The translations under genes and the position numbers were made by a program. 64,000 nt of DNA. Origin: a virus. Under the pieces are notes generated by a model. The model was not told the origin of the DNA and did no database searches. It was given only the letters and a program-made list of their open reading frames with translations. The stretch spans positions 4,337 through 68,336 of the IMG/VR virus record IMGVR_UViG_3300009104_000016, one strand, 5' to 3'. Shown piece by piece: positions 2,042-56,561 of the stretch. Each line of letters starts with the position of its first letter. Within the stretch, counting starts at the first letter, position 1.

Positions 2042-3119
2042 TCAAAACCCAGACCCTTTCGAATTCGATAGGCTCAAGGACGAGGTAAAGAATTTATCTC
2101 GCGAAGTCGAGGAGTTGAAAGACTCCGCAAAAGAAGAGAGCCAAGACGATTCCGGACTGACGTACGATACTCCCCCTTTTCAATCATGGGGGCGAGCGCC
2201 CGTAGTGCACTACCACGGAGATCTCAACGCGAGCGCCAAGACATTTAACGGAAACGTTACCCCGACAATAGACGATTACGCTGCTTTGAGAAAAGCTTTC
2301 GAGGCCTACACTCTCAGCGCATACACGTCAGGTATAGACGTTCAGCACGGAGATACGATCGTAGGGACGATAGGAGACAGCGGCGAGACCCGCGTTTACT
2401 GCCTAGTAACTTTCCTCGATACGGCAGGGCTTCAACCACAAGCAGGTTACCAAGTCGACGGAGGACTCCCCTACAAAGGACAAGCCTTTTGGAGCTATCA
2501 CCTATGGTCCTCATCTGCTGGCGAAGGATCCGATTGCGAATGTACTAGCTTTCCTCTCGCAGGCTCCTCGTCTAAGGCAACGGGAGACTGCTATTCCTTT
2601 GAAGTACTAACCGACCTTGGTACTCAGAGCGGCGGCAGTGGGGTAGCAATCAATCTGGTGCCGAAGAAACGAGTCGTGAAGGTAGATAAGTGCGGCAATA
2701 TCGTGGAAATCGGAGCACCTACCGATGATACGCCCATACCAATCCCTTGCTGTGAGGGAGGAGAACCGCTTCCACCATGCGCAACAGCAGATCCAACTTT
2801 AAACGGGTATGAGTGGCCTGCGCAACTTACCGTTGAAACCGACGACCTCCCGGGATGCACGACGGATAGCGGAATACCCAACACTCTTGTGCTAGATCCA
2901 TTCGGCTTATGCCGTTACGTTGACGCCTCACTCACCAACAACTTTATAGTGGCTCCAGATCCTGCTAATGACAGGTGGCGTATACCCAGCGCCGGCCGGG
3001 ATTGGCACAGCGGTGGCGAAGTGTTGGTTAAAGCGGGGCGGGGCAGCCCAAAGGGCGAATATACAGCTCCCGGGCAAGGAGCATGCACCGGCGAAACTTT
3101 AAAAATCACCATATCATGA
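2034..3119 (+). CDS. Cys-rich putative tail fibre/adhesin protein (361 aa)
   Basis: N-terminal coiled coil (LKDEVKNLSREVEELK) and many Cys. The C-terminal domain ending PKGEYT...KITIS resembles that of 3274..5244. Confidence 0.6.
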   Translation: MVDQNPDPFEFDRLKDEVKNLSREVEELKDSAKEESQDDSGLTYDTPPFQSWGRAPVVHYHGDLNASAKTFNGNVTPTIDDYAALRKAFEAYTLSAYTSGIDVQHGDTIVGTIGDSGETRVYCLVTFLDTAGLQPQAGYQVDGGLPYKGQAFWSYHLWSSSAGEGSDCECTSFPLAGSSSKATGDCYSFEVLTDLGTQSGGSGVAINLVPKKRVVKVDKCGNIVEIGAPTDDTPIPIPCCEGGEPLPPCATADPTLNGYEWPAQLTVETDDLPGCTTDSGIPNTLVLDPFGLCRYVDASLTNNFIVAPDPANDRWRIPSAGRDWHSGGEVLVKAGRGSPKGEYTAPGQGACTGETLKITIS

Positions 3120-3277
3120 GCGAAACTCCAAAGAAGCAACAGTCCAAGGGACTGGGCGACACAATTAAGAAGATCACCGACAAGATGGGAGTCAAGCAAT
3201 GCGGGGGATGCAGAAAGAGACAAAATAAACTCAACCGGTTGTTTCCATACAAACCTAAGCCTAAGGTAGAGGAATGA
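3116..3277 (+). CDS. Small basic CxxC protein (GLGDTI...CGGCRKRQNKLN type, common in environmental phages)
   Basis: ATGA overlaps at both ends (3116-3119 and 3274-3277). 53 aa. Confidence 0.75.
   Translation: MSETPKKQQSKGLGDTIKKITDKMGVKQCGGCRKRQNKLNRLFPYKPKPKVEE
3232..3267 (+). promoter_or_regulatory. Late-promoter motif: CAACCGGTTG overlapping -35 (TTGTTT), 17 nt, then TAAGGT
   Basis: One of six copies of the palindrome. It ends 32 nt before ATG 3274. Confidence 0.55.
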
Positions 3278-5244
3278 GATGGTTTCGCGTACCAGCTTTT
3301 ACGGGCATCCAAGCCGCAGCCGATGACGCCGATCGGGGTACTCTTCGTATTTGCGAAGGCTGTCTTCCTCTAGGGCCGGGGGGACTGCGCTCGGCGCCTG
3401 TTTGGGATGCGGTGGGAACCGCCGATAATTTGTCGAGTTCGTCTTGGAATTATCTTTCCGGGTCTGATGACGGCAAAGGAAACTCTGTAGTATGGGCAAG
3501 CCGTTTCGGCGAAGTTCATGATGTAAAGGTATTCTCTTCGGCAAATACGGACCTCGTCCTTTTGCCGGCAGGTTACGGCGTATCCGTAGGATCTCTGTAC
3601 CAGCAAGACAAGGCTTGCATGTCTGCGATAGGTAACCGAATGGTAGCCTTCGGAGATGGATCCGCTGAAGCTCTTTCGGCTGGTAAGGGACCTCCCACCG
3701 CTATTGTACAGATAGCTCCCGATAATAAGATATACCACCAAGAGTACTCTCGCTTTCCCAATTGTAAGTTTTATATACAAGGGCCCCGCAAGACCTTGTT
3801 CGCCTCAGGTAACAAGAACAACCCCCTGAAAGTATATATTTCGGAACCTGCCGGGCTGACGCAGCCGCACAGGGACTCGCTTTACTCATCCGAGGCCACG
3901 GGCAGCGTTGATCTTTTGATGACGGATGCTTCCGAAATAACGGCTCTCTCCTCTCTCGGCAATAACGTAGCCGTTCATACCGACGCAGGTATCTTTCTAC
4001 TATCCCCATCCAACCCTGACCAAGCAAGTTCCGGTTACAGGGTAGAGCAAGCACCTACTTCCGTAGCCTCGGCGGCCGTTAACTTGCAGGTGGTAGCCGG
4101 GGAAGACGGAACCCAACCGTACTATCTCGGTTTCGACGGACAGATCTGGAAGGATCCGGCTGGGCCCGGAAGTGAACAGAAGCATACTTACGCAGACCCC
4201 GTACAAGCTTCGGCGAAAGCCAAAGGACGCTGGGATGTAGATCATCCTATTGACCTTTCGGATTCGTTCTCCGCTTACGAGCCGGAGACGGGAATGTACT
4301 GGGTGTATATGAAAACCAAGGAATGGGAGGAATACCAAAGTACCCTCCCACCCAGCGTACCTGGGTCTATCTCTGCCGTAGCAGCTCCGGGAGCGCCCTC
4401 CACGATAAGCGCAGCCCTCCCTCCACAGGCCCCTTCGGGGATATCCGCACTGTCTTCTCCCGGAAAACCTTGGCTGGTATCCGCCTTGGCGGAACCGGGG
4501 GCACCTTCTTCAATTTCTGCTACGGTCGTTGGGGGTACGATCGTGGCGCCGGGGGCGCCTTCAGGTATTAGTGCTCTTGCACAACCTGGGGCGCCTTCCG
4601 GCATTAGTGCTCTTGCACAACCCGGAGCACCTTCAAGCATCAGTGCCGTGCTTGCGACACAAGCGCCGGGAGCTCCTTCTAATATCTCTGCCTTGGCGGA
4701 ACCGGGAGCTCCCTCGGCTATCTCTGCCCTGGCGGAACCGGGAGCACCTTCGAATATTTCGGCAGTACACCAAGTACAGGTACCGGGAGCACCTTCTAGT
4801 ATCTCTGCCTTGGCGGAACCGGGAGCTCCCTCGGCTATCTCCGCCACATTCCAGTGCGACGCCGCCAACCCATGCGACGTAACGGCATCCAACCCAGCTA
4901 CGGTAAATGTGAACCTTACATGGTTGACAGTATCCGCTACAGGCACGCTCATCTGGCAGGGCAACAACCCATTCGGAGCCACTTGGGGGCACGGAGGCTG
5001 GGAGGGCACTCTAAACATAAATACCGGAGGAACCCATTCCTGCATATTGGAACCCGTGCCGCAAGTGGGGCAACAAACGTTACTGAAAATCTCTTTCGCT
5101 ACTGGCGGCGGCGGCGTAGCTTGGAAGACTCTGGTCAAGGACTGGTCCGGCGTTCCCAATAACTGCGCTGCCCTCCGCTGCAAACCCTACGGAACTTACA
5201 CTTTAACTGAATTTAATATCAACTACGTCGCAATAGTGTCTTAA
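3274..5244 (+). CDS. Tail nozzle/stabilisation-like protein, N-terminal half, with 13 PGAPSxISA repeats and a Cys-rich C-terminal domain
   Basis: N-terminus MRWFRVPAFTGI...LRS and propeller-like strands resemble podovirus gp10/tubular-B proteins. The domain stops at YWVYMK, just before the repeat array. Confidence 0.65.
   Translation: MRWFRVPAFTGIQAAADDADRGTLRICEGCLPLGPGGLRSAPVWDAVGTADNLSSSSWNYLSGSDDGKGNSVVWASRFGEVHDVKVFSSANTDLVLLPAGYGVSVGSLYQQDKACMSAIGNRMVAFGDGSAEALSAGKGPPTAIVQIAPDNKIYHQEYSRFPNCKFYIQGPRKTLFASGNKNNPLKVYISEPAGLTQPHRDSLYSSEATGSVDLLMTDASEITALSSLGNNVAVHTDAGIFLLSPSNPDQASSGYRVEQAPTSVASAAVNLQVVAGEDGTQPYYLGFDGQIWKDPAGPGSEQKHTYADPVQASAKAKGRWDVDHPIDLSDSFSAYEPETGMYWVYMKTKEWEEYQSTLPPSVPGSISAVAAPGAPSTISAALPPQAPSGISALSSPGKPWLVSALAEPGAPSSISATVVGGTIVAPGAPSGISALAQPGAPSGISALAQPGAPSSISAVLATQAPGAPSNISALAEPGAPSAISALAEPGAPSNISAVHQVQVPGAPSSISALAEPGAPSAISATFQCDAANPCDVTASNPATVNVNLTWLTVSATGTLIWQGNNPFGATWGHGGWEGTLNINTGGTHSCILEPVPQVGQQTLLKISFATGGGGVAWKTLVKDWSGVPNNCAALRCKPYGTYTLTEFNINYVAIVS
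4351..4845 (+). repeat. Coding repeat array: 13 x P(G)APSxISA, mostly 36-nt units
   Basis: Counted directly in the translation. DNA units such as atctctgccttggcggaaccgggagctccctcggct recur. Confidence 0.95.
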
Positions 5245-5246
5245 TA

Positions 5247-5282
5247 CAACCGGTTGAAAATCACCATAAAAACTAGGAAATT
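5247..5282 (+). promoter_or_regulatory. Late-promoter motif: CAACCGGTTG / -35 TTGAAA, 17 nt, then GAAATT
   Basis: Lies in the 44-nt gap before the stand-alone FN3 gene (ATG 5289). Confidence 0.65.
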
Positions 5283-5288
5283 CTAACA

Positions 5289-5573
5289 ATGGCTACAGTA
5301 AATATACAATGGAATGTCGGTACGGGGACCATAGACAATTATGAGCTCTTCTGGAAGGTCGATGCAACTCAAGCTAATAAGGACAACGGCTTTGACGCAG
5401 CGGGAGGCGGCACTTTAATAACCGTCGCTGGGAATGCTAACACGCACACGCATGCTAACGCTCCCGATGGCTCTAACATTTCTTATTGCGTTCGCGCAAA
5501 GAACTCAGCGGGTGAAAGTGACTTCGCTTCAGGCGACACTGCAGGGAAATCTGACACCGTAACGACTCCTTAA
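5289..5573 (+). CDS. Stand-alone FN3-like domain lacking strand A
   Basis: VNIQW (B strand Trp), YELFW (C strand Tyr), ISYCVRAKNSAGES (F strand Y.VRA.N..G.S) and TVTTP (G strand). Only 3 residues precede strand B. Confidence 0.8.
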   Translation: MATVNIQWNVGTGTIDNYELFWKVDATQANKDNGFDAAGGGTLITVAGNANTHTHANAPDGSNISYCVRAKNSAGESDFASGDTAGKSDTVTTP

Positions 5574-5595
5574 CTCCCGGTGACGGGGCCTTACC

Positions 5596-7692
5596 ATGCC
5601 ACCAGGCGCTCCCTCGGGGATCAGTGCATGCGTTAGCCAGCCGATCACTGTTACAAACGCCCCGGAAGGCTCGCTTAACGGGACTTATCAATTTGACGCT
5701 GTTACCGATGCTTGGGTTAACCAAAACAACGTACAGTGGTCTATCCAAAAAGTATGGTGGGACGCCAACGCCTTGGGCACGGGCAACGCTGCCGGCAATT
5801 ACTGGACGGTAGTATTTGATCCGGATGCGGGGGTAGCTCCTCCTCCCGGGGCTATACCCATAGGTAAACTGTGGTACCCCACTTTAATCGATGACCCCTT
5901 TCCGGGCAGCACCGCTCAAAACAATGGGTGGTCCTTCATCAACGACAAGCACGCGAATCGGTGGCCTTTTTACCCCAACCATAAGGTTTTAGTGGAAAGG
6001 TTCGACGCTTCCAACCCCCCTCAATTCATAGATTCAGTTGAAATCGCTGGAGATATAGAAAACGACGGGGAATGGGCGGACACTGTTCTAGGTTCGCCAC
6101 CCTCCATGGCGGAAATCTTTCGGGCGGCTATGTGGGAATTCGGGTCACCTAAATGCTACTCGTTGACCGCAACGATTCCCCAATTTAACCCGCACGGCAG
6201 CGTTTTCCTGCCCAGTTATCAAACGTCCGCAGCCGTAGGTAGTATTAATCCAGTGGGTTCATCCAACGTAATGCTCGGAGGCTGGAACAGTTCGAATGCA
6301 GGCGCATGCACAGCCCAAAGCTTAAACGATCTTTGGGGCAATTCCGCCAACTCCTACGATAACGGGGGCGTCAAGATGGACTACACCCGTACGTGGAATG
6401 ACGGGACAACCTATAATTTCAAGCTCACCCTACAAGAGCCTTTCAATCTACACACGAATCGTCCGTTCAACTACCTAATGTTCGGCGATACGAACGACGT
6501 GGTCGTAATGAACAAGGTGGCCACGGCATTCCCGTACCCCGGCGGTAAGTGGAGTGCTCCTTTTATGTACATAGCCTCCGCTTTGGAAGCTTCCGTGGCG
6601 TGGGACTTCTCCATCGGACCTCTCGCCAACAGTCCCTGCCCTCCCTCAGAGGGGTGGTTCGGGGTGGGGAATATTCCGGGGGTTCCTTCTAATATTTCCG
6701 CCGTCACCACTCCGGGAGTACCCTCCAACATTTCCGCCGTCACCACTCCGGGAGTACCCTCAAATATCTCTGCTTCCCTCGACGTAGGGGGCGTACCCGG
6801 GGTACCCTCCAACATTTCCGCAAGCGTTCTGCAAATACCGGGAGCTCCCTCAAGCGTTTCCGCTTCTTTAGCAGTTACAGTACCTGAAGCGCCTTCCAGT
6901 ATTTCGGCAAACCTCGTCACAATCCCGGGGAACCCCTCCAGTATTTCCGCAAGCTTAGTGGCAGGCGCAGTACCGGGAAACCCCTCTTCCATTTCCGCAA
7001 CGGTTGTAGAGAGGTCGTACACGGGGCGAACGCGTCCCCCAAAATACATGGGTTTTGCGTACAGCGAAATGAATCAAGAGCTAGCGGGACCGTTCTCTCA
7101 TGAAAACCTCACTGCGCTGACCTCCATACAGAACCAGAGCAACCTGCTTTGCGTAACGGAAGAGCAAGAAATCAAAAAAACCGACCTTAGGAACTACCGA
7201 GATCGCGACTTCCCCGTACCTCCATCCCTTTGGGGAGACCTCCTTACACAACCGTCAGGAGATGATTTCGTGGTGGGCAACCCAGACGGGGCTTTCATGT
7301 ACCGGGGGAGACACATATCTTCGCCTTTCGCAGATCCCGTTATGGGCGTAAACACCATAACAAATCCTTACTTCTTCACTGATGCTTACTTAGCCGTAAC
7401 CGAAACAGCGTGGATGCACTTAGGTAACGAGCACAATAATAAGCAGATACACAGGATAGACTATAACTTCTCAAAGAATTCCTTCGGCCACCTCTGGGCC
7501 TACGTTCAATCAGATTCCGAAAAAGGAAAGATCAGCGGGCAGTACAAGGGGTTGATCAAGGAAAACATGAGAGTGTTCACTAATATTCGCGGGAGAAGAT
7601 TCCGGGTAAAAACCTTCATTGTTTCGCATAAGGATCATCCGTGGAATCTTCGAGAGATGGCGGTAGGTCATCTGGTAGGTAAGTCGTTTTAG
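5596..7692 (+). CDS. Protein with an N-terminal PGAPSGISA, a beta-rich cargo region, 8 more repeats, and the C-terminal half of the nozzle-like protein
   Basis: C-terminal KYMGFAYSE...GPF, ETAWMHLGNEHNNKQIHRI and IRGRRFRVK resemble the end of gp10/tubular-B-type proteins. Confidence 0.65.
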   Translation: MPPGAPSGISACVSQPITVTNAPEGSLNGTYQFDAVTDAWVNQNNVQWSIQKVWWDANALGTGNAAGNYWTVVFDPDAGVAPPPGAIPIGKLWYPTLIDDPFPGSTAQNNGWSFINDKHANRWPFYPNHKVLVERFDASNPPQFIDSVEIAGDIENDGEWADTVLGSPPSMAEIFRAAMWEFGSPKCYSLTATIPQFNPHGSVFLPSYQTSAAVGSINPVGSSNVMLGGWNSSNAGACTAQSLNDLWGNSANSYDNGGVKMDYTRTWNDGTTYNFKLTLQEPFNLHTNRPFNYLMFGDTNDVVVMNKVATAFPYPGGKWSAPFMYIASALEASVAWDFSIGPLANSPCPPSEGWFGVGNIPGVPSNISAVTTPGVPSNISAVTTPGVPSNISASLDVGGVPGVPSNISASVLQIPGAPSSVSASLAVTVPEAPSSISANLVTIPGNPSSISASLVAGAVPGNPSSISATVVERSYTGRTRPPKYMGFAYSEMNQELAGPFSHENLTALTSIQNQSNLLCVTEEQEIKKTDLRNYRDRDFPVPPSLWGDLLTQPSGDDFVVGNPDGAFMYRGRHISSPFADPVMGVNTITNPYFFTDAYLAVTETAWMHLGNEHNNKQIHRIDYNFSKNSFGHLWAYVQSDSEKGKISGQYKGLIKENMRVFTNIRGRRFRVKTFIVSHKDHPWNLREMAVGHLVGKSF
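6676..6999 (+). repeat. Coding repeat array: 8 x PG(V/A/N)PS(N/S)ISA
   Basis: Seen in translation, including VTT-PGVPSNISA twice. Confidence 0.95.
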
Positions 7693-51900: not shown

Positions 51901-54519
51901 TTGCCTGTAGATGAAAACACAGATTACTCGGGGCTAAAGCCGGAAGATCGCCGAAAGATTCTCAAAAATTTGGATAAACTTAGCGCAGAGCAGAAAACCT
52001 TGATTAAGAAAGCCGTCAAGTTATTCGATTCCATGAACAAGAGAAGCCTGGATCTTCTGGCCGCAAACGGTGTGTTAGGTAAAGACGCCCTGGGGAGGAT
52101 AAACAAGCATGCGAGAAACGATAAAAATGAATGGGTTTGGGCCCCCCTTCGAGGTGTTGACGATGCGGAGGTGAACACAGAAGATGGTAATGTTTTCGGA
52201 GGGTTTCTTAAAAATCTTTTGGAGTTGGATGGGGGGCGTATTCTTGAAGAGCCAAGCGGCACCGGTACGGGGGCCGGCTTCTCAGAGAACAGTAGAGATT
52301 TCGTATTAGCAGCAGCTAAAGGCAGGTATTCCCAGGCCGAGTCGCGTAAGATTTTCGCATATGCCTTGAAATCGGCAGCGGAATCTGTAATCAGATCCAA
52401 TAAAAACGAAGTATCCAACAGCGTAGGCGCAGCTTTAAGAGTGGCTTTTTCGCAAGGAGGAGATAAGTATTCTAAGGTTGCTCAAGTAATAGATCCCACT
52501 CTTGCCGAGGATAAAGAAAAGTTTTTACGTAAAAGGGAAGTAGCCGTTTTCAAGAATGTAAACGGCAGACAGCAAAAAGTCATAGAAGTCGTAACTGAAA
52601 ATCTTCTTGATAAAACTGAGTTGGTTTTGACTTATAGGCAAGAGGGGAAACCTATTCACATACTATTTGAGGATTCCCACCTAGGTAGGATGCTTGTAAG
52701 GCAGTTAAAGAATGCCGACAACGTCAGTTTAGGCCCTACGGCGGCTAAGTTTAAAAATCTAATGAGTTTCTTCGCCAAGGTCTATACGGTATTCTCTCCC
52801 AATTTCATGGTATCCAACATGAATCGAGATTTGCTCATGGCCTACTTTACCTTAAAGAGCTCCGAAGACACCAAGAAATTTGCCCGAACTGTTCTGAACC
52901 CCGTCAATATAGCTCAAAACATTGCCGCGATGTATAAGGAGTCTCGAAGAGAATCCAAGGGGTCTCAAGTTCCTAAGGAATTAAAAGCGCGTCTACTCGC
53001 CGCAAAAGCAGCAAATCTTAAAGGTCTTTCTCTAGCGGAGTTTGCGGATGACTTGGAAATAGCCCCCTTGCTTTACCAGCAAGCAGGCGGTCGGGTGGCT
53101 TTCTTCGGGATTGAAGATGCTGAGCAGAGAGCCGCCAACCTTGCCAGACGTGTCAATAAAATGGGGAAGACGGGAAAAATACCTAGCAAAGCCTCTTTAA
53201 AAGATTTTATAGCCTTTATTCAAAACCTTAATACTGGAGTAGAGAATGGGGTACGACTTCAAGTTTTCAGGGAAGCGATTCGAAACGGGATGTCTCTGGA
53301 AAAAGCAGCTGGACTCTCGCGTGACGTAACCGTAGATTTCAACCGGAAGGGCAACTACACTAACATAGTCAACACTCTCTATTTGTTTTTCAACGCGAGC
53401 GTGCAGGGCAACTACAAGCTCCTTCGAGCCTTCTTTACGGAGAGAACCGCCAAACAAGCGGGGGCGCTTGTAGGGCAGTTTATAGCAGCAGCCGCCGTGT
53501 ACTCTTTTATTTCCAGACTGTGGGCCGGGGAAGACGAGGAAACCGAGGAGAACCACGTTGACCGTTTGTCGGAGTACGAGAGAAACCATCAAATACAGTT
53601 ATGGCTGGAGCCCGGCACGGGGAAGCATCTTAAAGTACACATTCCGTACGGCTTAAACACTCTGCTGAGCTTGGGACGCCGAATAGGTGACGTAATGTGG
53701 AACACCATTCATGGGAAAGGAGGGGCTACTCCCATCGAAGCTTCCATCGGATGGCTGTCCAATGCGCTTGACGTGTTTAATCCTTTGGGAGCTGCGGGCC
53801 ATCCGTTGATATCCGCTACTCCACATCTGGCCCGGCCCTTGGTGAATATGGCGGGGCCTCAAGTAAATTTCATGGGCAATCCGATATATCCCGACAATTC
53901 CTTTTCTGAGAAAACGGAGGCGCATCAACACTTTAGCAGCGTCAATCCTTTATCCCGGGAAGCGGCTCAATGGTGGAACAGACAGCTGGGTGGTGATCAA
54001 TACCACCCTGCTTTTGGGGGTTCTACCTTTACCTTTTCCCCTGAAACCTTGGACGAGTTGGTTAATTTCATAGGGGGTGGCTCCGGGCGCATGATATGGC
54101 AGAACCTGGGCAGTACGTTACGACCGCAAGAACGGGAGTTCAAAACTTTACTTAAAGACCTCCCTGTTCTTCCGGTGTTGTATCGACACGGTACCGAAGA
54201 CTACAATCTGGACAGACGCTACTTCAAGTTGCTTAAGGGGATAGATGCTAGGTATAAACAGTATAACCTCTACAAAAGCCAAGATCCTAAGCAAGCAATA
54301 ACCTACGCTAAGGAAATTAAACCTTACCTACAGCTCAAAGGCTTTTCGGACAATATAGGGAAGCAGAGAAAATATTGGCAGCGCAAGATAGATAAAATGA
54401 CTAAAATGAAAGCATCCCCTGAAAAAATGCAACGGATTGAAAAGCAAGCGGAAAAAGATCAACGTAAGAGCAAGGGAAGGCTTCTCGCTAAAGCGAGACA
54501 GCTGGGCATTTCACCATGA
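39949..54519 (+). CDS. Giant polyvalent virion (ejected) protein, 4856 aa: zincin HExxH, RecD/Dda-like SF1 helicase, MORN-variant, SLOG-like and LPD38-like domains
   Basis: LLHESAH (~42532). GYAGTGKTT/VDEASML/GDGFQLPPV/TAHKAQGSQW/YTAMGRA (44.2-45.5 kb). WYENG.K repeats (45.7-46.0 kb). FHSGGAEGTD...RNYYQI...GGSGFAV...IGTR (47.5-48.7 kb). LFFNASVQG...NFMGNPI (53.3-54.2 kb). Confidence 0.85.
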   Translation: MASELNLGSVDFAESPVESPSSPGGKPREFEQYESFKQEGDFLEDRVGDHKTLSSSLKSRRGKVYGKIQKVMENANDGYFMGEDEVGPEEWLKSVEGSSSYKNNKELRSYLDTLKGFDDKIGKHDLLAEKAFAERDAHLLEATSIPTHFQKSYEDWQDERTKAGKQRKPLDPDELHAFLNTFTPFYEEPKFNFRGRLENAEAVDPRFAGDYRKPKRNFTTGRVEDPAMDVMRGRMAKALAGDIQGFLSYRKQAEKNDKLRARGFEFGSGGTADLKHPFELSRNEREILDKEEAKNLGFKSYRGIPLDDAFDKDNVAHAGELESARMMRLVFASNLAYKKAFAQYMKDLANKADLEEASAKLQIARRAREGAIQKAIGAGFAMEVLNRAEDRGLFGQAFNAVKQAWKQGQGLGDAALLFEQAGVTGGFGIDEMIGGKIDQEFAEQLVEVMEQAKEGGTTESLQDYYREIQENEPENLGEAFGQLINNPAAAAQLFVQSLSMYLPPVFSYGLKTVPAGAAAGLVAGGGAGAFKGAGYGLRSAFPIASFSLSYLGKIFEDMEEMGIDTNNPRILMQAWNSPAVMEKLRVKAAKYAGGVSMFDAVGALGAGRIGKILDGPTKFIGTSVLPNSQKMATFLKTGIKTGGEIGFGAGTGMLGDYVGQKWSNDPGEKVDLASVAAEGLLEVGPHVVTAPLEMARGIWGKQPKLNPDGTLDEEVETEDTVEISKSETAPDPRSIGNTRNLKWRGQEVPVFNYASETEFTEGLRQKAEENGISMDDSELKATEFLASGLFNPETGSHGTDLNIAWINKNDAKALFPKSNPLRSAYTPHVGEQNKDSVIFINIDGVKERQKRGDAGVFSTLLHESAHFAHDFIYGDEEISVFWDEVGQEDRQKMAAVYASSGRASSVNDFKDAFDNQEEAEQALAIYDDLINEKTGVKLRREWFAHQVTRVLKGEKLRNNSLQKLIQDFIEHLKKAVQFLMDGGQGSEVGSGIEDKELDAQLERFILERLRPGLDFEGQNIGNQRVGLAAAGQFRSAVTRDKEERGQLEHIVNQFINRQQGGKAVSDSATLKRIADTLGLKEKSELKEVVALIKKHRSALAKAETKEQVEAAEEAYKKGGTALLRVKDQAKKAHARAKTEAAKAAKSAEDKKKWAGDAAKEAKEWDFQGSSFIDYARSKGADTPEKAFRLLFKRLSGRFYYKEDANTVANPFIIQQWSGVALEKLQTEEGKNKKKGDTFGFEIPIDNLKLPKLTKDTFYQAKIGGGHGYVVFKVADAKSTDKKGVLEVEATVEQLFENKEIGTWLQKAAAKLKEPFKSAPKAKPKTEAASKDDADPDDDDPPPGGGGGRASGDSGSADGTTPDEKGSGSPPAPAPKKGAMPGDALGKKAAVKAASYSEEPPVREDEDIFKAREEELDYTAGQRVALRKAAEMVEGKTGELVTAGYAGTGKTTIMENIIRYALDKGRDVVVLAPTYKALSNINKSIGKELQDRISSETVQQATQRWDDRQKKTIFGLNGEIVSPNSLVLVDEASMLSNFNYEHLQKHSSVLYFGDGFQLPPVGGDNQVMQNPDVTLTEVKRQSLKSNLFLFLTALRSLATPKLIKPHIDIQKPGDLDFKPADGDFKKELQAVFKKWFQGGKREEDSVVAICHTNKNRSILNQGVRKALGFKPNTLNEGEQLLVLNNGIRYTNSETLNVTSASVIDSIDKEALALRYKSRYATGDDAGKELSPENYDFYEVTSDVEGSAVTTTHLVIYDTAKVGQASFELGGVYTENWDALPSNMVKTPERENAPKELADNLYVSTYGYALTAHKAQGSQWNTVFVYPDVRISEKDSSGKWRAKEEEQARWLYTAMGRARKRVVLTNTTEPYAPFRNAAIPSKAQIEALASPPEAAPEAAPEAAPEDAPETKPEAAPTEPENEVDPLELEKRDGLQYFEGKPFTGVAVSKLNSGAKLSEATYKNGNLHGPQTFWYSNGQKSSETNFKDGKRDGITTRWYENGKKEYEYNYKDDDLLSIKEWDEKGTLTENKRLDKPEAEPEAPKSKAEGGVPTRIHDTLEAANAAVGELKGAQLFDGSNYIVSDDLRPFVVIDIEGVKVAFYLSSGMGGKKLSKPGHWFPVPGMSPNGRWLNKGSDFDLSVYYGSDKLKKVAQELDAKIGNIGSLIESALPMAGKDPVESEDVNKWITNHPTVNREASKKVATNINSMLGALGEPAFYVKEGGATTTRLKPETKPEAKPKEETISEQDVLDSLMSGTPEKKEDHDPIIYALPPDPTSEDKLRFAGNLMSLAGKDGKEKLSTLVNALTVAGNLGYEYVLKDSTLWTSNGVLTVVPPEELGTNPLEFFDSSPNFRKTDNKPEDRKRNSIKNLLKAIINIDALRELPIQHDFLSYDNYQGSLKKELQQLQQAAKNTNEVLSILRDAKAYRLTHDQAVPDEAYLRQLRKRIEKIDPSAVALLKDSSLGLPPSVVTRAKEIAEEKKTLLSKISPERRSLIFKQAVNQALRERADARRQAGGGRSLAFHSGGAEGTDSWFFRLGRLFGIEQVHWGFAYNKKSGKWLEEDKSERGGLKSEEHELIDWQWDGYGYGNKWLLEQAVQAYNAALDMQKKWSPFARHDSQLRILTNDQGQPMRRMPNGNLVALRPPGDGRPGDRLVVERTLDKKLPSRVEKLKLRNYYQIQNTNSFGPLEGKRTSLWANDGGQKPWLHLVNEVIAVVGRNNEGGFSSGVREIPEGSKDNDWKVHIDEFNVKARDFDSSLPADYDLSIWQHKKTLQEEEKKAFNKSLRDFSRRVRQVNYIDGGSGFAVQMAVMEWFRTQWRRDLSQPQKKENQADETSFHVYNQSDNQWYTLDKKPYPYTRGGAALTGVELEWVPIDTENAKLTLSLEEGARSAMIGTRDLTLSGRRAMEKLLADSFPDFAEDFEYLQGFDEEYGGILYKNLYTPQGAIANLQEEMKMLHQLPFLEGGKSLTHYDKFLRLPGDAVLEGDLFLPGGLFESTLVNSININGKKITYGQKFSLSQLAESKGGISMIERIEKNLKKRLDKLVELGQEVKFATEHEKLYDLYNQIQAFKQFYVFEMTDTAGDRMGPLASLSKEEIETLAIAIDMSGKRGWSSSQRQKDQLISSSRNPNLVDAVIYNLLKAAYDTKLIDGEQGLTRLFKEWSDEVQRNPEGELAEILKLSTRAPMLLSEEALAELSPKGEGTGGTWEKTPENEIYQTQGVEGIRQLRVQGVKATHSINPLVDPPGNLFSETDELPLGKIPPTDEELKAKGATPSSVTRKIKKERGEKDGFKEESFLGGFQRKEGEVVESYEDYADRRDAERRERDKVYPEQKQRKSVKVAKGKQEVTPEYSVPEDTTVLPEDSMIRKMLDREFPLELVQHYIDIGLIPDSDLKELAKYTAEAEKDPNLTKDWNQKDFQRLGLENARKILIRQMLHYFSGGGRPKRLSSSTTGLASFEEHLSEALEELLAFRETSSPARAEAIALEEKLKDWRTSIIAARSFFSDLLNAEDIPEGRKPHPVLDTPIFFKRSPDPNKSNASILEFLPDGYEILEKELQERTELIEKIRKSLRAVENDIRTQKDPKHNIGVLHALRRKLHRTDNVLSSLEEKTTKISPRILLNQILNFGVTRAFGEHKTDTVALDPATENMEQLDVGDPFHDNLFALVRSLSEPLPKPEGRKRTAREQEEIDTWVRKNKERLRKKWKDGILKFEDAAARLTSSSGANIRKEVFGHLLTQWLGAPDIARNKNYQKVMEALFENAAEDSSGTAKVDPMKLEKEEALRLLISLAYGEVDIDGNPVQHFDLDMNISPDHSRSSGTVSPEGDIIERKTLKEEGSDSDYFNPEADHDSPIFKTSSTDPVRKKAEARREKALASDMKFTRAIVDQFPHVSHWCAGVMQGLHDRGQLSSLKGHQVDDLNFIQKIRLYFGKTGDQLKEIQQQYENPVLELLSSAKLKDPLGTFGDYLYARYAPVRNRNMRELRRKSGLPVDENTDYSGLKPEDRRKILKNLDKLSAEQKTLIKKAVKLFDSMNKRSLDLLAANGVLGKDALGRINKHARNDKNEWVWAPLRGVDDAEVNTEDGNVFGGFLKNLLELDGGRILEEPSGTGTGAGFSENSRDFVLAAAKGRYSQAESRKIFAYALKSAAESVIRSNKNEVSNSVGAALRVAFSQGGDKYSKVAQVIDPTLAEDKEKFLRKREVAVFKNVNGRQQKVIEVVTENLLDKTELVLTYRQEGKPIHILFEDSHLGRMLVRQLKNADNVSLGPTAAKFKNLMSFFAKVYTVFSPNFMVSNMNRDLLMAYFTLKSSEDTKKFARTVLNPVNIAQNIAAMYKESRRESKGSQVPKELKARLLAAKAANLKGLSLAEFADDLEIAPLLYQQAGGRVAFFGIEDAEQRAANLARRVNKMGKTGKIPSKASLKDFIAFIQNLNTGVENGVRLQVFREAIRNGMSLEKAAGLSRDVTVDFNRKGNYTNIVNTLYLFFNASVQGNYKLLRAFFTERTAKQAGALVGQFIAAAAVYSFISRLWAGEDEETEENHVDRLSEYERNHQIQLWLEPGTGKHLKVHIPYGLNTLLSLGRRIGDVMWNTIHGKGGATPIEASIGWLSNALDVFNPLGAAGHPLISATPHLARPLVNMAGPQVNFMGNPIYPDNSFSEKTEAHQHFSSVNPLSREAAQWWNRQLGGDQYHPAFGGSTFTFSPETLDELVNFIGGGSGRMIWQNLGSTLRPQEREFKTLLKDLPVLPVLYRHGTEDYNLDRRYFKLLKGIDARYKQYNLYKSQDPKQAITYAKEIKPYLQLKGFSDNIGKQRKYWQRKIDKMTKMKASPEKMQRIEKQAEKDQRKSKGRLLAKARQLGISP
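45616..45690 (+). repeat. 12-bp coding tandem repeat CCCGAAGCCGCA (PEAA linker)
   Basis: Three exact and three variant units. Confidence 0.95.
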
Positions 54520-56561
54520 GAGACACCAATTTAAAGCTTTCGAAAAAGCAAGAAGAAGATCTGATCAAGTACGCTCTTGACCGGCTCAAGGAACTCGAGG
54601 CCGATAATCTTGAGAGGATAGACTCCGACAAGCTGTCGTGGAAGGTTTACGAGAATGACCGCTCGGATCGGCTAGTGAACGATACGATATTCTCACAATC
54701 CAACGTGCCCATCCCCCTGACACCGCTTATCGTAGATCATTTTCTCGCCAGAGCGGAAGACGATATAACGGGAACCGCTCCCTATTTCAGGTTCGAGGCT
54801 CAAGGTCCCCAAGACGAAGCTATCGTCAAGTCCTTTGATAAATATTTCAATTGGAAGCTGGATAAAAAAGCACGCACGCGCGAGCGTCTCGAGGAAAGCT
54901 ATCTCCATATTTTCCTGCAAAGGGCGGCGGTCTTTAAGGCGGTTTACGAAGAATCCAGCTCGGTTTGGTACGATTACGAGCGGAATGCGCTGTACGATAC
55001 GGTCGAGGAAGATTTCGTCCGAACAATGGAAGGAGAGTACGTTCTTGAGGGCGAAGCTCAGTTTGAGCCTATAACAGATCCTATGACGGGAGAGACCGTA
55101 ATGTCCATGGTGGGGGAGCCCGGCATAGAGGCAGTACCCGGTCGTCATGATTTCGTCCCCCTGCCGGAAGGAGTGCCCACTCAGTTGATCAGGTATAGAG
55201 GACCCCGCTCCGTAGTCGTAGACTCCGATCGCTTTCTCTGCCCCTCCAATGTAGAGCACATCGAGGAAGCTGACTGCTTGGTGGAATCTTACGACAAGGA
55301 TTTGAACTGGTGTAAGAAAATGTTCCTGGAGAGAGAATGGCTTTCTTACGAAGATTTCCTCCAGAAAATAAAGAAGGACGCAAATCCCAGAACCAAAAGC
55401 GAGAACAACAAGGAATACAGGGAGAACCTCTCCTTCGACGATGAGGAAAACCCAAAGGTCCAGATCAAGGAATTCTGGTTGAAGAGAGATGTCCTGGAAA
55501 CAGGAGAGCCTCAGGATTTTTGCGTCTTCATAGACCCGGAAACCGAACAGGCCGTTTACTACGAGTACGTTGCGAAAGTGACTCCCGACAATAAGATACC
55601 CTACTCTTGTGTTTCCATAGGCAGACAAAGAAACAGATGGTGGGGACCTTCCCTCCCTGAGAAGGTTCGCGTATACCAAGAGTATCTGGACAAACAATTT
55701 AATTCACAGTCCTACCGGAACGAAATGGCCGCTAATCCAATAGTGGGGGTAAACCCTAATTCCGTGGAGGACGAGCCGGACGAGATAGAACTTTACGCAG
55801 GCAAAGTCTTTGAACTGAAGGATCAACATAAAATGGAGGACTTCATGACCTTTGCGGTAGTCCCCAATGTTGATACCAAAACTCAGGAACTTATAGATTT
55901 TGTCTTCGGCATGGTCCAGTTATGGCTTGGAGTAAGTAACCTTGCTCAGGGGGATTACCAGGCCTTGACTCCGGCAAACACAGCTACCGGAGTTGAGGCC
56001 ACCCTGAGAGAAGCCTCCAAAATAGGCAGACGTTGGATGCGTCGGGTTGTAAGAGGTTTCGAGGAACACTTGACTAAGCTCGTAAAGATTTCCATGGCTA
56101 CTCTCGAAGAGCCCGAGATCTTTGAATATATGGAAGGAGACGTAGCCAGCTTTGGCGTGATCACTCCCGAAATGGTAGAGAACCTGGAGACCGATGCCAG
56201 AGTAATTCTGTCGCAGAACCAAGATCAGAGAACTCTCGAAAAAGCCAATATGGCCCTGCAGACGCAGGAAAGATACTTTAACTACGCACCTGAAATCCGC
56301 CCGTGGGTACGACCACTACTTGTTGAAATTCTCGCCGCTATGGGGTATGAGAAGATAGACGAGCTTCTTCCACAGGAAGCACCGCAAGACCCTAGGGCTG
56401 AAGCCGAGATGATGAAACTCATGGCCGATGCTCAAGGTACTGGGGGAGGCGGCTCCGGTGGGGCGGCTCCTCCTAAGCAGGATTCAATAGGACCTGCCGT
56501 GGAGGGAATGGGCAATTCCAATCCACAGGGGCAAAATCAATATCAACAGCAAACAGGATAA
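54516..56561 (+). CDS. Portal protein
   Basis: 681 aa. FSQSNV, WWG.SLPE...Q..L, and GVSNLAQG...TATG pattern of podovirus-type portals. Confidence 0.85.
   Translation: MRDTNLKLSKKQEEDLIKYALDRLKELEADNLERIDSDKLSWKVYENDRSDRLVNDTIFSQSNVPIPLTPLIVDHFLARAEDDITGTAPYFRFEAQGPQDEAIVKSFDKYFNWKLDKKARTRERLEESYLHIFLQRAAVFKAVYEESSSVWYDYERNALYDTVEEDFVRTMEGEYVLEGEAQFEPITDPMTGETVMSMVGEPGIEAVPGRHDFVPLPEGVPTQLIRYRGPRSVVVDSDRFLCPSNVEHIEEADCLVESYDKDLNWCKKMFLEREWLSYEDFLQKIKKDANPRTKSENNKEYRENLSFDDEENPKVQIKEFWLKRDVLETGEPQDFCVFIDPETEQAVYYEYVAKVTPDNKIPYSCVSIGRQRNRWWGPSLPEKVRVYQEYLDKQFNSQSYRNEMAANPIVGVNPNSVEDEPDEIELYAGKVFELKDQHKMEDFMTFAVVPNVDTKTQELIDFVFGMVQLWLGVSNLAQGDYQALTPANTATGVEATLREASKIGRRWMRRVVRGFEEHLTKLVKISMATLEEPEIFEYMEGDVASFGVITPEMVENLETDARVILSQNQDQRTLEKANMALQTQERYFNYAPEIRPWVRPLLVEILAAMGYEKIDELLPQEAPQDPRAEAEMMKLMADAQGTGGGGSGGAAPPKQDSIGPAVEGMGNSNPQGQNQYQQQTG

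What the first reader, a model, noticed from the sequence alone, without database searches (positions are those of the whole stretch)
3274..7692. Candidate split-FN3 (donor-strand) scaffold system on the phage tail
Seen: 22 copies of P(G)(A/V)PSxISA, with 13 at 4351-4845, one at the start of 5596 and 8 at 6676-6999. Between the arrays, a 94-aa gene has FN3 strands B-G but begins only 3 residues before strand B. Known: tandem FN3 domains usually begin with a PxAPxNLxA-type A strand after a ..VTT G-strand end, and two units here read VTT-PGVPSNISA. Inference: the repeats are free A strands that complete the headless FN3 in trans, so the tail protein acts like a scaffoldin loaded with many subunits. 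The headless gene has its own late-promoter motif (5247), as expected for a subunit needed in high copy. I know of no description of this in phages, but could not search.
Basis: partly seen in the sequence, partly recalled or inferred. Interest (0 to 1): 0.92.

Follow-up and report, generated by a model that had tools for sequence, protein, structure and literature searches.

The report
Strand-less FN3 beads on nozzle ropes
An uncultured podophage splits its tail nozzle protein into two genes, each carrying a string of 12-residue peptides that match the missing first strand of a small fibronectin-type protein encoded between them; this is most likely a new variant of the recently solved rope-and-bead phage fibres, but binding has not been shown.

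Summary
ORF A (3274-5244) has 13 P-x-x-P-S-x-I-S-A units and ORF C (5596-7692) has 1+8. ORF B (5289-5573, 94 aa) is an FN3 fold that starts at strand B.

The surroundings change the picture. A and C are the two halves of one tail protein: relatives encode it unsplit (581 aa), and its N-half models as a beta-propeller closest to podophage nozzle chains. The arrays sit exactly at the split point.

The layout is conserved. Among 40 distinct related loci, 30 have 5 or more units, and 20 of those have a strand-A-less FN3 gene directly downstream. 27 of 28 such small ORFs begin at strand B. In cis-FN3 relatives, the piece B lacks is a 12-13-residue P-A-A-P-x-N-L-T-A segment, which matches the unit in length and consensus.

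Cryo-EM of phage A1002 (PMC13730344; also GP4 and VP1) shows a split nozzle with a rope that docks many small fibre-protein dimers by beta-sheet augmentation. Those beads (Pfam Gp80) are unrelated to B, so this is a new variant of a known kind.

Trans binding remains unproven; my one complex prediction gave no answer. The scan noted the same kind of system earlier on other DNA (e1-6172119).

The parts
3232..3241 (.). Palindrome CAACCGGTTG, promoter-like motif 42 nt before the start of A
   Evidence: 5 copies in the window. This copy and the one at 5247 lie at the same distance from a start codon.
3274..4323 (+). Gene A, aa 1-350: N-half of a split nozzle-type beta-propeller tail protein
   Evidence: Homologous to aa 1-347 of the unsplit 581-aa protein of L008/L009. 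AF2 pLDDT is 73-91 for aa about 41-250. The top five VIA hits are podophage tail/nozzle chains, Z 8.4-9.7.
4351..4845 (+). Array 1 ('rope' 1): 13 units, mostly 12 aa, P-G-A-P-S-x-I-S-A plus a 3-aa linker
   Evidence: pLDDT is 25-45 in the monomer model. The units reported by HMMER align to the strand-A segment (profile positions 2-20) of a cis-FN3 profile, with non-significant scores.
4846..5241 (+). Gene A C-terminal distal domain (aa 525-656) with four conserved Cys
   Evidence: Alignment A4. Low-confidence beta model. Replaced by unrelated domains in relatives.
5247..5256 (.). Palindrome CAACCGGTTG, promoter-like motif 42 nt before the start of B
   Evidence: CAACCGNTTGA is conserved at the same distance before B in 19 of 21 distinct spacers of other phages.
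5289..5573 (+). Gene B: 94-aa FN3 domain lacking strand A (candidate 'bead')
   Evidence: Family alignment A6 of 22 sequences all begin M-A-x-[VI]-x-L-x-W.
5602..5628 (+). Single unit PGAPSGISA at the N-terminus of C (absent from the L001 and L002 homologs)
5629..6675 (+). Gene C N-terminal distal domain (aa 12-360)
   Evidence: Alignment A2. No Pfam or PHROG match for the whole C protein. Absent from relatives with a bare 220-aa C-half.
6676..6999 (+). Array 2 ('rope' 2): 8 units P-G-[VAN]-P-S-[NS]-[IV]-S-A
7030..7689 (+). Gene C, aa 479-698: C-half of the split nozzle-type protein
   Evidence: Alignment A3 has 73% mean column identity. Homologous to aa 362-581 of the unsplit L008 protein.

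Best explanation
A and C are the two halves of a split tail-nozzle protein. At the split point each half carries a 'rope': a string of 12-residue units that are FN3 strand-A segments. B is the matching 'bead', an FN3 body (strands B-G) that cannot close its sheet alone.

Most likely each unit lies against strand B of one copy of B as its missing first strand. Many copies of one 94-aa protein would then turn a floppy peptide into a rod of FN3 domains that projects the distal domains (A's C-terminal domain, C's N-terminal domain) from the tail. That makes it an FN3-based variant of the rope-and-bead chain-like fibres solved in A1002, GP4 and VP1.

Shown: the gene anatomy, the fold of B, the split, the conservation and the adjacency. 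Inferred: binding in trans, one bead per unit, and virion location.
For: 1. B is an FN3 without strand A, and it cannot be longer.
2. The missing piece equals the unit. Of 673 cis FN3 domains closest to B, 419 have P..P..h.[AVTS] starting 12-13 residues before B's Met position. The consensus is P-A-A-P-x-N-L-T-A-T-A-G, the same length and pattern as PGAPSNISA-LAE.
3. The system is conserved.
   - L001 and L002 have the same three genes at 36-45% identity.
   - 27 of 28 distinct small B-like ORFs begin at strand B. In 20 of the 30 loci with 5 or more units, B lies directly downstream of the array gene; the stop-to-start gap was 32-55 nt in the 21 adjacent spacers of the first census.
4. The four array-bearing records without an adjacent B that were at least 55% complete do have a headless FN3 elsewhere. 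In L072 it sits next to another array protein with about 13 units.
5. Across lineages the units diverge but keep P, N/G, a hydrophobic residue and A in register. Complete FN3 domains occur in line within some arrays.
6. The array has no confident structure of its own in a monomer model, pLDDT 25-45.
7. A and C form a split nozzle. There is an unsplit 581-aa homolog, and the propeller N-half is nearest podophage nozzle chains.
8. There is an experimental precedent. In A1002 a nozzle-rope protein docks 11 dimers of small fibre proteins, each forming an augmented beta-sheet with the rope. The paper numbers the bead genes between the two nozzle halves (PMC13730344, sections 9 and 11).
9. Geometry, from general knowledge: 12 extended residues span about 40 A, roughly the length of one FN3 domain.
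Against: - No binding evidence of any kind was obtained here.
- 10 of 30 array-bearing loci have no adjacent B, and 2 of 10 array-poor loci do. L017 has a bare N-half, then B, then a protein of at least 880 aa (cut by the contig end) with no visible array in the first 660 aa shown; L036 is the other.
- B-family genes occur in 8 of the 10 records searched, whatever their arrays. Genome-level co-occurrence therefore does not discriminate.
- The adjacency statistic (Fisher 0.025) ignores relatedness. The unit detector gives 13 of 197 control ORFs a chain of 5 or more.
- Single units are too short to score against a cis-FN3 profile. They get negative bits, and shuffles reach up to 3.8 bits.
- AF2 folds B alone with pLDDT 79, so the model gives no sign that it needs a partner.
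- The known beads (Gp80 family) are dimers of another fold, so the precedent covers the architecture, not the FN3 chemistry.
- Covariation between unit and B amounts to one lineage: Ile in the units and Ile in strand B, in the window only.
Confidence: 0.55

Rival explanations
1. Single-site joint or cap. B, and larger proteins that begin with the same headless FN3, dock at only one strand-A-like peptide, for example the N-terminal unit of C or the last unit of an array. The rest of each array is a flexible spacer.
For: - In L076/L079 and L078, fibre proteins with a single strand-A-like motif near their C-end are followed by 417- and 459-aa proteins that begin with a headless FN3.
- In L056/L057 the headless FN3 heads a 733-aa protein.
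- B occurs beside a bare N-half in L017.
- C of the window begins with one unit.
Against: - A plain spacer would not need to keep P, N/G, the hydrophobic residue and A in register over 8-22 copies in lineages that otherwise diverged.
- The N-terminal unit of C is missing in L001 and L002.
- The solved precedent loads every site of the rope.
Confidence: 0.2
2. Self-assembling stalk. The arrays pair with each other (A with C, or between the six neighbouring subunits) into a beta-structured shaft. B is an independent accessory, for example an Ig-like adhesion or decoration domain.
For: - Both arrays leave the core at the same split point.
- Short pseudo-repeats with conserved Pro/Gly and hydrophobic positions are typical of viral fibre shafts (general knowledge).
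- Arrays within one genome resemble each other more than arrays of other genomes do.
Against: - Copy numbers of the two arrays differ: 13 vs 8 in the window, about 12 vs 2 in L001, 17 vs 9 in L002.
- Many relatives have an array only on the N-half gene and a bare 220-aa C-half.
- Complete monomeric-type FN3 domains lie in line within some arrays.
- This reading gives no reason for B to lack exactly the segment that the units resemble.
Confidence: 0.12
3. Evolutionary remnant. The arrays are collapsed leftovers of a former tandem FN3 region (strand A joined to the end of strand G, as in 'VTT-PG..'). B is a six-stranded FN3 that is stable by itself. Their resemblance is historical and not functional.
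For: - Units such as PGVPSNISA-VTT look like strand A plus the end of strand G.
- In-line complete FN3 domains in relatives show that cis forms exist.
- AF2 folds B alone.
Against: - Remnants should decay. Here unit number varies widely (2 to 22) while the motif stays under constraint in lineages where B proteins are only 19-28% identical to the window's B.
- The start of B at strand B is kept in 27 of 28 distinct ORFs.
Confidence: 0.08

Closest known systems
Chain-like (rope-and-bead) fibres on the split nozzle of Pseudomonas podophage A1002, and the related fibres of Ralstonia phage GP4 and Vibrio phage VP1. Source: PMC13730344, of which I read the abstract, sections 9, 11 and 12, and passages. 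The GP4 and VP1 papers were not seen; the GP4 paper is not held.
   Same: - The nozzle is divided into two polypeptides that rebuild one beta-propeller.
- An extended rope attached to a nozzle half offers many serial docking sites.
- Small separately encoded proteins dock by beta-sheet augmentation.
- By their gp numbers (gp39-gp42), the bead genes lie between the two nozzle halves.
- A distal Ig-like domain ends the rope.
- The window's N-half model is nearest to podophage tail chains, including GP4's (8jov_A, Z 7.9).
   Different: - Beads there are 140-171-aa proteins of Pfam family Gp80 (PF23140) that act as dimers.
- B is a 94-aa FN3 unrelated to gp80 (hhalign probability 0.2%).
- PF23140 is absent from this genome.
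- The paper's text mentions neither FN3 nor repeats. Here the rope is an evident tandem array of FN3 strand-A segments.
- Both nozzle halves carry a rope here.
- Docking here is only inferred.
Donor-strand complementation in chaperone-usher pili (general knowledge; no paper read here)
   Same: An Ig-like subunit lacks one edge strand, and another polypeptide supplies it.
   Different: - There the missing strand is the C-terminal G strand. It is donated by the next identical subunit, which gives a homopolymer, and a chaperone and an usher are needed.
- Here the missing strand is the N-terminal A strand.
- The donors are serial copies on a separate scaffold protein.
- No chaperone is evident.
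Tandem beta-zipper of bacterial fibronectin-binding proteins on fibronectin F1 modules (recalled; no call)
   Same: A disordered array of short repeats adds one beta-strand to each of a row of small beta-sandwich modules.
   Different: - There the modules are complete and covalently linked, and the peptide is an extra strand.
- Here the modules would be free subunits that lack a native strand.
N-terminal strand swapping in the consensus FN3 scaffold Tencon (PDB 4m6a; title seen only)
   Same: It shows that strand A of an FN3 can be supplied by another chain. 4m6a_D aligns to B from its residue 15, Z 9.0.
   Different: It is an engineered protein forming a reciprocal dimer swap, not a scaffold with many donor strands.
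Cohesin-dockerin scaffoldins of cellulosomes
   Same: One scaffold protein with many serial sites is loaded with separately encoded subunits.
   Different: The sites there are folded cohesin domains that bind dockerin domains. There is no strand complementation and no relation in sequence or fold.

Membership tests
Fibronectin type III domain (Pfam PF00041), for B | Sequence match to the family profile above its curated cut-off | tested here: not met
   Pfam fn3 gives 18.4 bits against a cut-off of 25, E 0.0025. However, a profile of 250 cis FN3 relatives gives E 7.6e-12. The B-family profile hits titin and other FN3 chains down to E 2.9e-17.
Fibronectin type III domain (Pfam PF00041), for B | FN3 beta-sandwich fold | tested here: met
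   AF2 pLDDT 78.9. All listed Foldseek hits are FN3 domains or FN3-containing proteins, probability 0.99-1.00. VIA Z 8.3-9.2 over 71-77 residues, rmsd 2.0-2.9.
Fibronectin type III domain (Pfam PF00041), for B | Seven strands, including the N-terminal strand A | tested here: not met
   The model has six strands, the first at aa 2-7. In the listed single-domain, 1-based-numbered chains the first 14-16 residues are left unmatched. B covers profile positions 19-101 only. The frame is closed 4 codons upstream.
Rope-and-bead chain-like fibre on a split nozzle (A1002 / GP4 / VP1) | Nozzle beta-propeller rebuilt from two polypeptides | tested here: met
   The unsplit 581-aa homolog equals the A N-half plus the C C-half. 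Bare N-halves of about 355 aa and C-halves of about 220 aa exist in relatives. The propeller model has nozzle-chain hits at Z 8.4-9.7, but generic propellers follow at Z 7-8. Physical re-association was not tested.
Rope-and-bead chain-like fibre on a split nozzle (A1002 / GP4 / VP1) | Extended rope attached to a nozzle half with several serial docking sites | tested here: inconclusive
   Arrays of 13 and 8 units start at the split point and have no confident self-structure. That they are docking sites is inferred.
Rope-and-bead chain-like fibre on a split nozzle (A1002 / GP4 / VP1) | Bead protein of the Gp80 family (PF23140) | tested here: not met
   PF23140 has 0 matches in the own genome at E <= 1. 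B family against GP4 gp80 gives hhalign probability 0.2%. GP4 gp80 itself matches PF23140 at E 6.5e-41.
Rope-and-bead chain-like fibre on a split nozzle (A1002 / GP4 / VP1) | Beads bind the rope by beta-sheet augmentation, many per rope | not testable with these tools
It needs biochemistry or cryo-EM.
Donor-strand complementation polymers (chaperone-usher type) | Subunit lacks a strand that is supplied by the next identical subunit's extension | tested here: not met
   B has no extension. Its 94 aa are strands B-G only. The candidate donor strands are on A and C.

The most novel reading that the evidence does not exclude
A natural split-FN3 tag-and-body system. A 12-residue strand-A peptide, repeated 22 times on the two halves of a split nozzle, may template one copy each of a 94-aa strand-less FN3. 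The phage would then build two long FN3 rods per nozzle subunit from about 36 nt of DNA per bead position instead of about 270 nt.

The same strand-A / headless-FN3 cut also serves in related phages as a plug-and-socket joint that hangs larger tip proteins on fibres (L079, L078, L056). It would be a widespread, modular assembly grammar of uncultured podophages, distinct in fold from the Gp80 beads solved so far.
Probability: 0.5. Interest if true: 0.75.

Novelty: new variant of a known kind. Interest (0 to 1): 0.6.

Why it matters
If the beads do load onto the units, this extends the rope-and-bead principle, known so far from three cultured phages with one bead family. It would reach a second, unrelated bead fold and a large group of uncultured podophages: 62 loci were found in one scan, and the core family has 137 or more protein clusters.

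It would also be a natural example of non-covalent fragment complementation of FN3 by a 12-residue peptide. FN3 is widely used as an engineering scaffold, so this could serve as a peptide-tag and binder pair.

It offers an explanation for three things:
- how small genomes build long appendages cheaply;
- why the split point of the nozzle is a hot spot for swapping distal domains, which is relevant to host range;
- what the many unannotated small 'FN3-like' ORFs in phage tail modules may be.

It also gives annotation rules. The N-half and C-half genes should be read as one nozzle, and the arrays as ropes.

Tried and rejected
Complex prediction.
- Input: B as partner, with A aa 455-656 and C aa 1-480.
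- Verdict: 'no answer'. The three runs scored 0.34, 0.40 and 0.50. Partner-replaced controls scored 0.00 and 0.00. The control with chain 2 replaced scored 0.51.
- The score is therefore not specific by the tool's own mark. I use it neither for nor against binding.

Frameshift or read-through fusion of A-B or B-C: rejected. B's frame is closed from 5277 and C's from 5584.

A's extreme C-terminal strand as the fixed donor of strand A for B: considered. It is not supported by conservation, because the C-ends of the N-half genes differ completely among B-containing loci.

Sigma-70 consensus promoter at 5247: the scan found no site there, and it found 3 sites against 3.6 expected in the region.

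HMMER scoring of single units against a cis-FN3 profile: registers agree, but bits are negative and shuffles score as high. I did not use it as statistics.

Covariation between unit and B: only one lineage-specific coincidence.

Searches that gave little:
- The search for homologous proteins with B found 1 near-identical hit. With the C alignment it found only the window's own proteins.
- The exhaustive profile search with B was swamped by giant multi-FN3 proteins. Only 2 of the 150 listed were small.
- Phage isolate collection: no match for 8 kb of DNA, the A N-half or B.
- PDB sequences with the unsplit core: nothing below E 0.097.
- PHROGs: nothing for A, C or the unsplit core.

RNA evidence: no RNA holder was listed, and read laying was not run.

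Literature.
- Searches found no paper describing FN3 strand complementation in phage fibres.
- Only PMC13730344 describes the rope-and-bead architecture.
- The GP4 paper (J Mol Biol 2023) is not held, and I did not try to fetch the VP1 paper.
- The bead fold of A1002, GP4 and VP1 was not compared with B in 3D. It did not appear among the 50 rows shown, which is no evidence of difference.

Full report
**Setting.** The window is bases 4337-68336 of a single 68,336-bp virus record rated 100% complete. It carries an SU10-type portal (54516-56561), a family-A DNA polymerase and a 4,856-aa ORF. The finding lies at the end of the + strand structural block, next to the oppositely oriented replication genes.

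**Observation.**
- The three ORFs exist: A 3274-5244 (656 aa), B 5289-5573 (94 aa) and C 5596-7692 (698 aa).
- A regular-expression count gives 11 strict and 2 degenerate units in A (nt 4351-4845). It gives one unit at aa 3-11 of C and eight at aa 361-468 of C (nt 6676-6999).
- Only two other loose matches occur in six frames of the 64 kb.
- At DNA level the arrays are 36-nt tandem repeats, 69-90% matching.
- B cannot be extended. Its frame opens at 5277 and C's at 5584, so there is no frameshift or read-through fusion.

**B is an FN3 without strand A.**
- Pfam fn3 aligns aa 3-78 to profile positions 15-76 of 84, below the curated cut-off.
- AF2 gives pLDDT 78.9 and six strands, starting at aa 2.
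- Every listed Foldseek match is an FN3 domain or FN3-containing protein, but none reaches E <= 0.001.
- VIA-align gives Z 8.3-9.2. B residues 1-85 align to residue about 15-17 onward in the listed single-domain, 1-based-numbered FN3 chains.
- I then took the 148 multi-FN3 proteins closest to B and located 673 cis domains. Of these, 419 carry P..P..h.[AVTS] starting 12 or 13 residues before the position of B's Met. The consensus is P-A-A-P-x-N-L-T-A-T-A-G.
- So B lacks exactly a 12-13-residue piece. The window's unit, PGAPSNISA plus a 3-residue linker, has its length and pattern.
- A profile of 250 complete cis domains aligns B to positions 19-101 (E 7.6e-12). The reported units align to positions 2-20, but single units score below zero and shuffles do as well, so only the register is informative.

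**A and C are halves of one protein.**
- Two viral contigs (L001, L002) have the same A-B-C layout at 36-45% identity.
- L008 and L009 encode a single 581-aa protein. It equals A's first 350 or so residues joined directly to C's last 220 or so residues. It has no units, no B and no middle domains.
- The core family is large: 137 clusters were found. They include unsplit forms of about 580 aa, bare N-halves of about 355 aa, and N-halves with very different extensions.
- In the AF2 model of A, aa about 41-250 are confident. They form a beta-propeller whose five best VIA matches are podophage tail or nozzle chains: Pa223, Carin-1, SU10, LME-1 and the crAss001 muzzle, at Z 8.4-9.7. Generic propellers follow at Z 7-8.
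- The arrays begin exactly at the split point. In the monomer model they have pLDDT 25-45.

**Census.**
- A scan with an N-half alignment gave 62 loci.
- I removed duplicates (identical first 300 aa) and loci with a truncated N-half gene or less than 400 nt downstream. That left 40 distinct loci; some near-duplicates such as L039 and L044 remain.
- With a 22-sequence B profile, 30 loci have 5 or more units after the split point. 20 of these have a small headless FN3 gene directly downstream, and 22 have one somewhere in the locus.
- Of the 10 loci with fewer units, 2 have an adjacent one (L017, L036).
- Fisher's test gives 0.025 but ignores relatedness. The unit detector of 197 control ORFs.
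- 27 of 28 distinct small B-like ORFs start at strand B.
- The stop-to-start gap before B is 32-55 nt and holds CAACCGNTTGA in 19 of 21 distinct spacers. In the window the palindrome CAACCGGTTG occurs five times, and 42 nt before the starts of both A and B.
- Units differ by lineage but keep Pro, N/G, a hydrophobic residue and Ala in register. Some arrays contain complete in-line FN3 domains.
- Many relatives have an array only on the N-half gene, then B, then a bare 220-aa C-half.

**B elsewhere.**
- Five array-bearing contigs without an adjacent B were searched whole. Four have a headless FN3 elsewhere. The fifth record is 23% complete.
- In L072 the headless FN3 sits next to a 304-aa protein with about 13 units.
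- Five contigs with unit-poor or unsplit N-half genes (0-5 units each) were also searched, and four have B-family matches.
- In L076/L079 and L078 these head 417- and 459-aa proteins. Each is encoded right after a fibre protein with a strand-A-like motif near its end.
- So the headless FN3 is nearly universal in this phage group, and it may also act as a single joint.
- L017 shows B with no array in the sequence held.

**Prior art.**
- An earlier scan note on another genome (e1-6069182) cited PMC13730344, which I read.
- In phage A1002 the nozzle is split into a nozzle-rope protein (gp39) and a nozzle-base protein (gp42).
- GP4 and VP1 have similar chain-like fibres. The text mentions neither FN3 nor repeats.
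- GP4's gp80 defines Pfam PF23140. It is unrelated to the B family (hhalign 0.2%), and the window's genome has no match to it.
- The architecture is therefore known. The FN3 bead and the strand-A rope are not described in what I could search.

**Verdict.**
The split of an FN3 into a body gene and arrays of strand-A peptides is real, conserved and gene-linked. Loading of many beads per array is the most economical reading (0.55), but it is unproven.
- The system is a new variant of the rope-and-bead fibre on a split nozzle.
- The same kind of system was noted earlier by this scan on other DNA (e1-6172119). I did not check that report.

Noticed in passing
window 3232, 5247, 32574, 59218, 63380: The 10-bp palindrome CAACCGGTTG occurs five times in 64 kb, all in front of + strand genes. 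The related CAACCGNTTGA is conserved about 40 nt before B in 19 of 21 spacers of other phages. It is probably a phage promoter or regulator site.
   Followed up: partly
L076 (1475-3, minus strand) with L079 (1728-478, minus strand); L078 (3128-1731 and 1725-349, minus strand): Collagen-like fibre proteins carry a strand-A-like motif near their C-end. Each is followed directly by a 417- or 459-aa protein that begins with a headless FN3. This is a possible plug-and-socket joint between fibre proteins.
   Followed up: partly
L072 1501-1830 and 2024-2935: In genomes where B is not beside the nozzle genes, it lies after a portal-like gene and a 96-aa ORF. It is directly followed by a 304-aa protein with about 13 PAxGPTGLGASV units.
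   Followed up: partly
P0185, L012 and L021 N-half gene extensions: Some ropes end in a domain with a zincin-like H-E-L-x-H motif, so a protease-like distal domain sits at the end of the array.
   Followed up: no
L001 5938-8136 (C homolog, aa about 440-500): Most of array 2 is replaced by Asp-rich D-x-D-x-D-G-type segments that look like calcium-binding repeats.
   Followed up: no
window 4846-5241 and 5629-6675: Four Cys are invariant among the three A sequences in A's C-terminal domain (aa 528, 534, 631, 636). C348 at the end of C's N-terminal domain is invariant among the three C sequences, and the Cys near the N-terminus (aa 13) looks conserved but was not aligned by MAFFT. Disulfides are possible.
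   Followed up: no
window 3083-3277; L036 10634-10957: A small ORF with a shared G-D-T-I-K-K-x-T-D-K-x-G-x-K-Q-C-G-G-C motif precedes gene A in the window. In L036 it precedes the FN3-like ORF.
   Followed up: no
window 4351-4845 and 5304-5306: The window is the only one of 22 lineages with Ile at the buried unit position (11 of 15 units). It is also the only one with Ile instead of Leu in B's first strand (TVNIQW). This is a single possible compensatory pair.
   Followed up: partly
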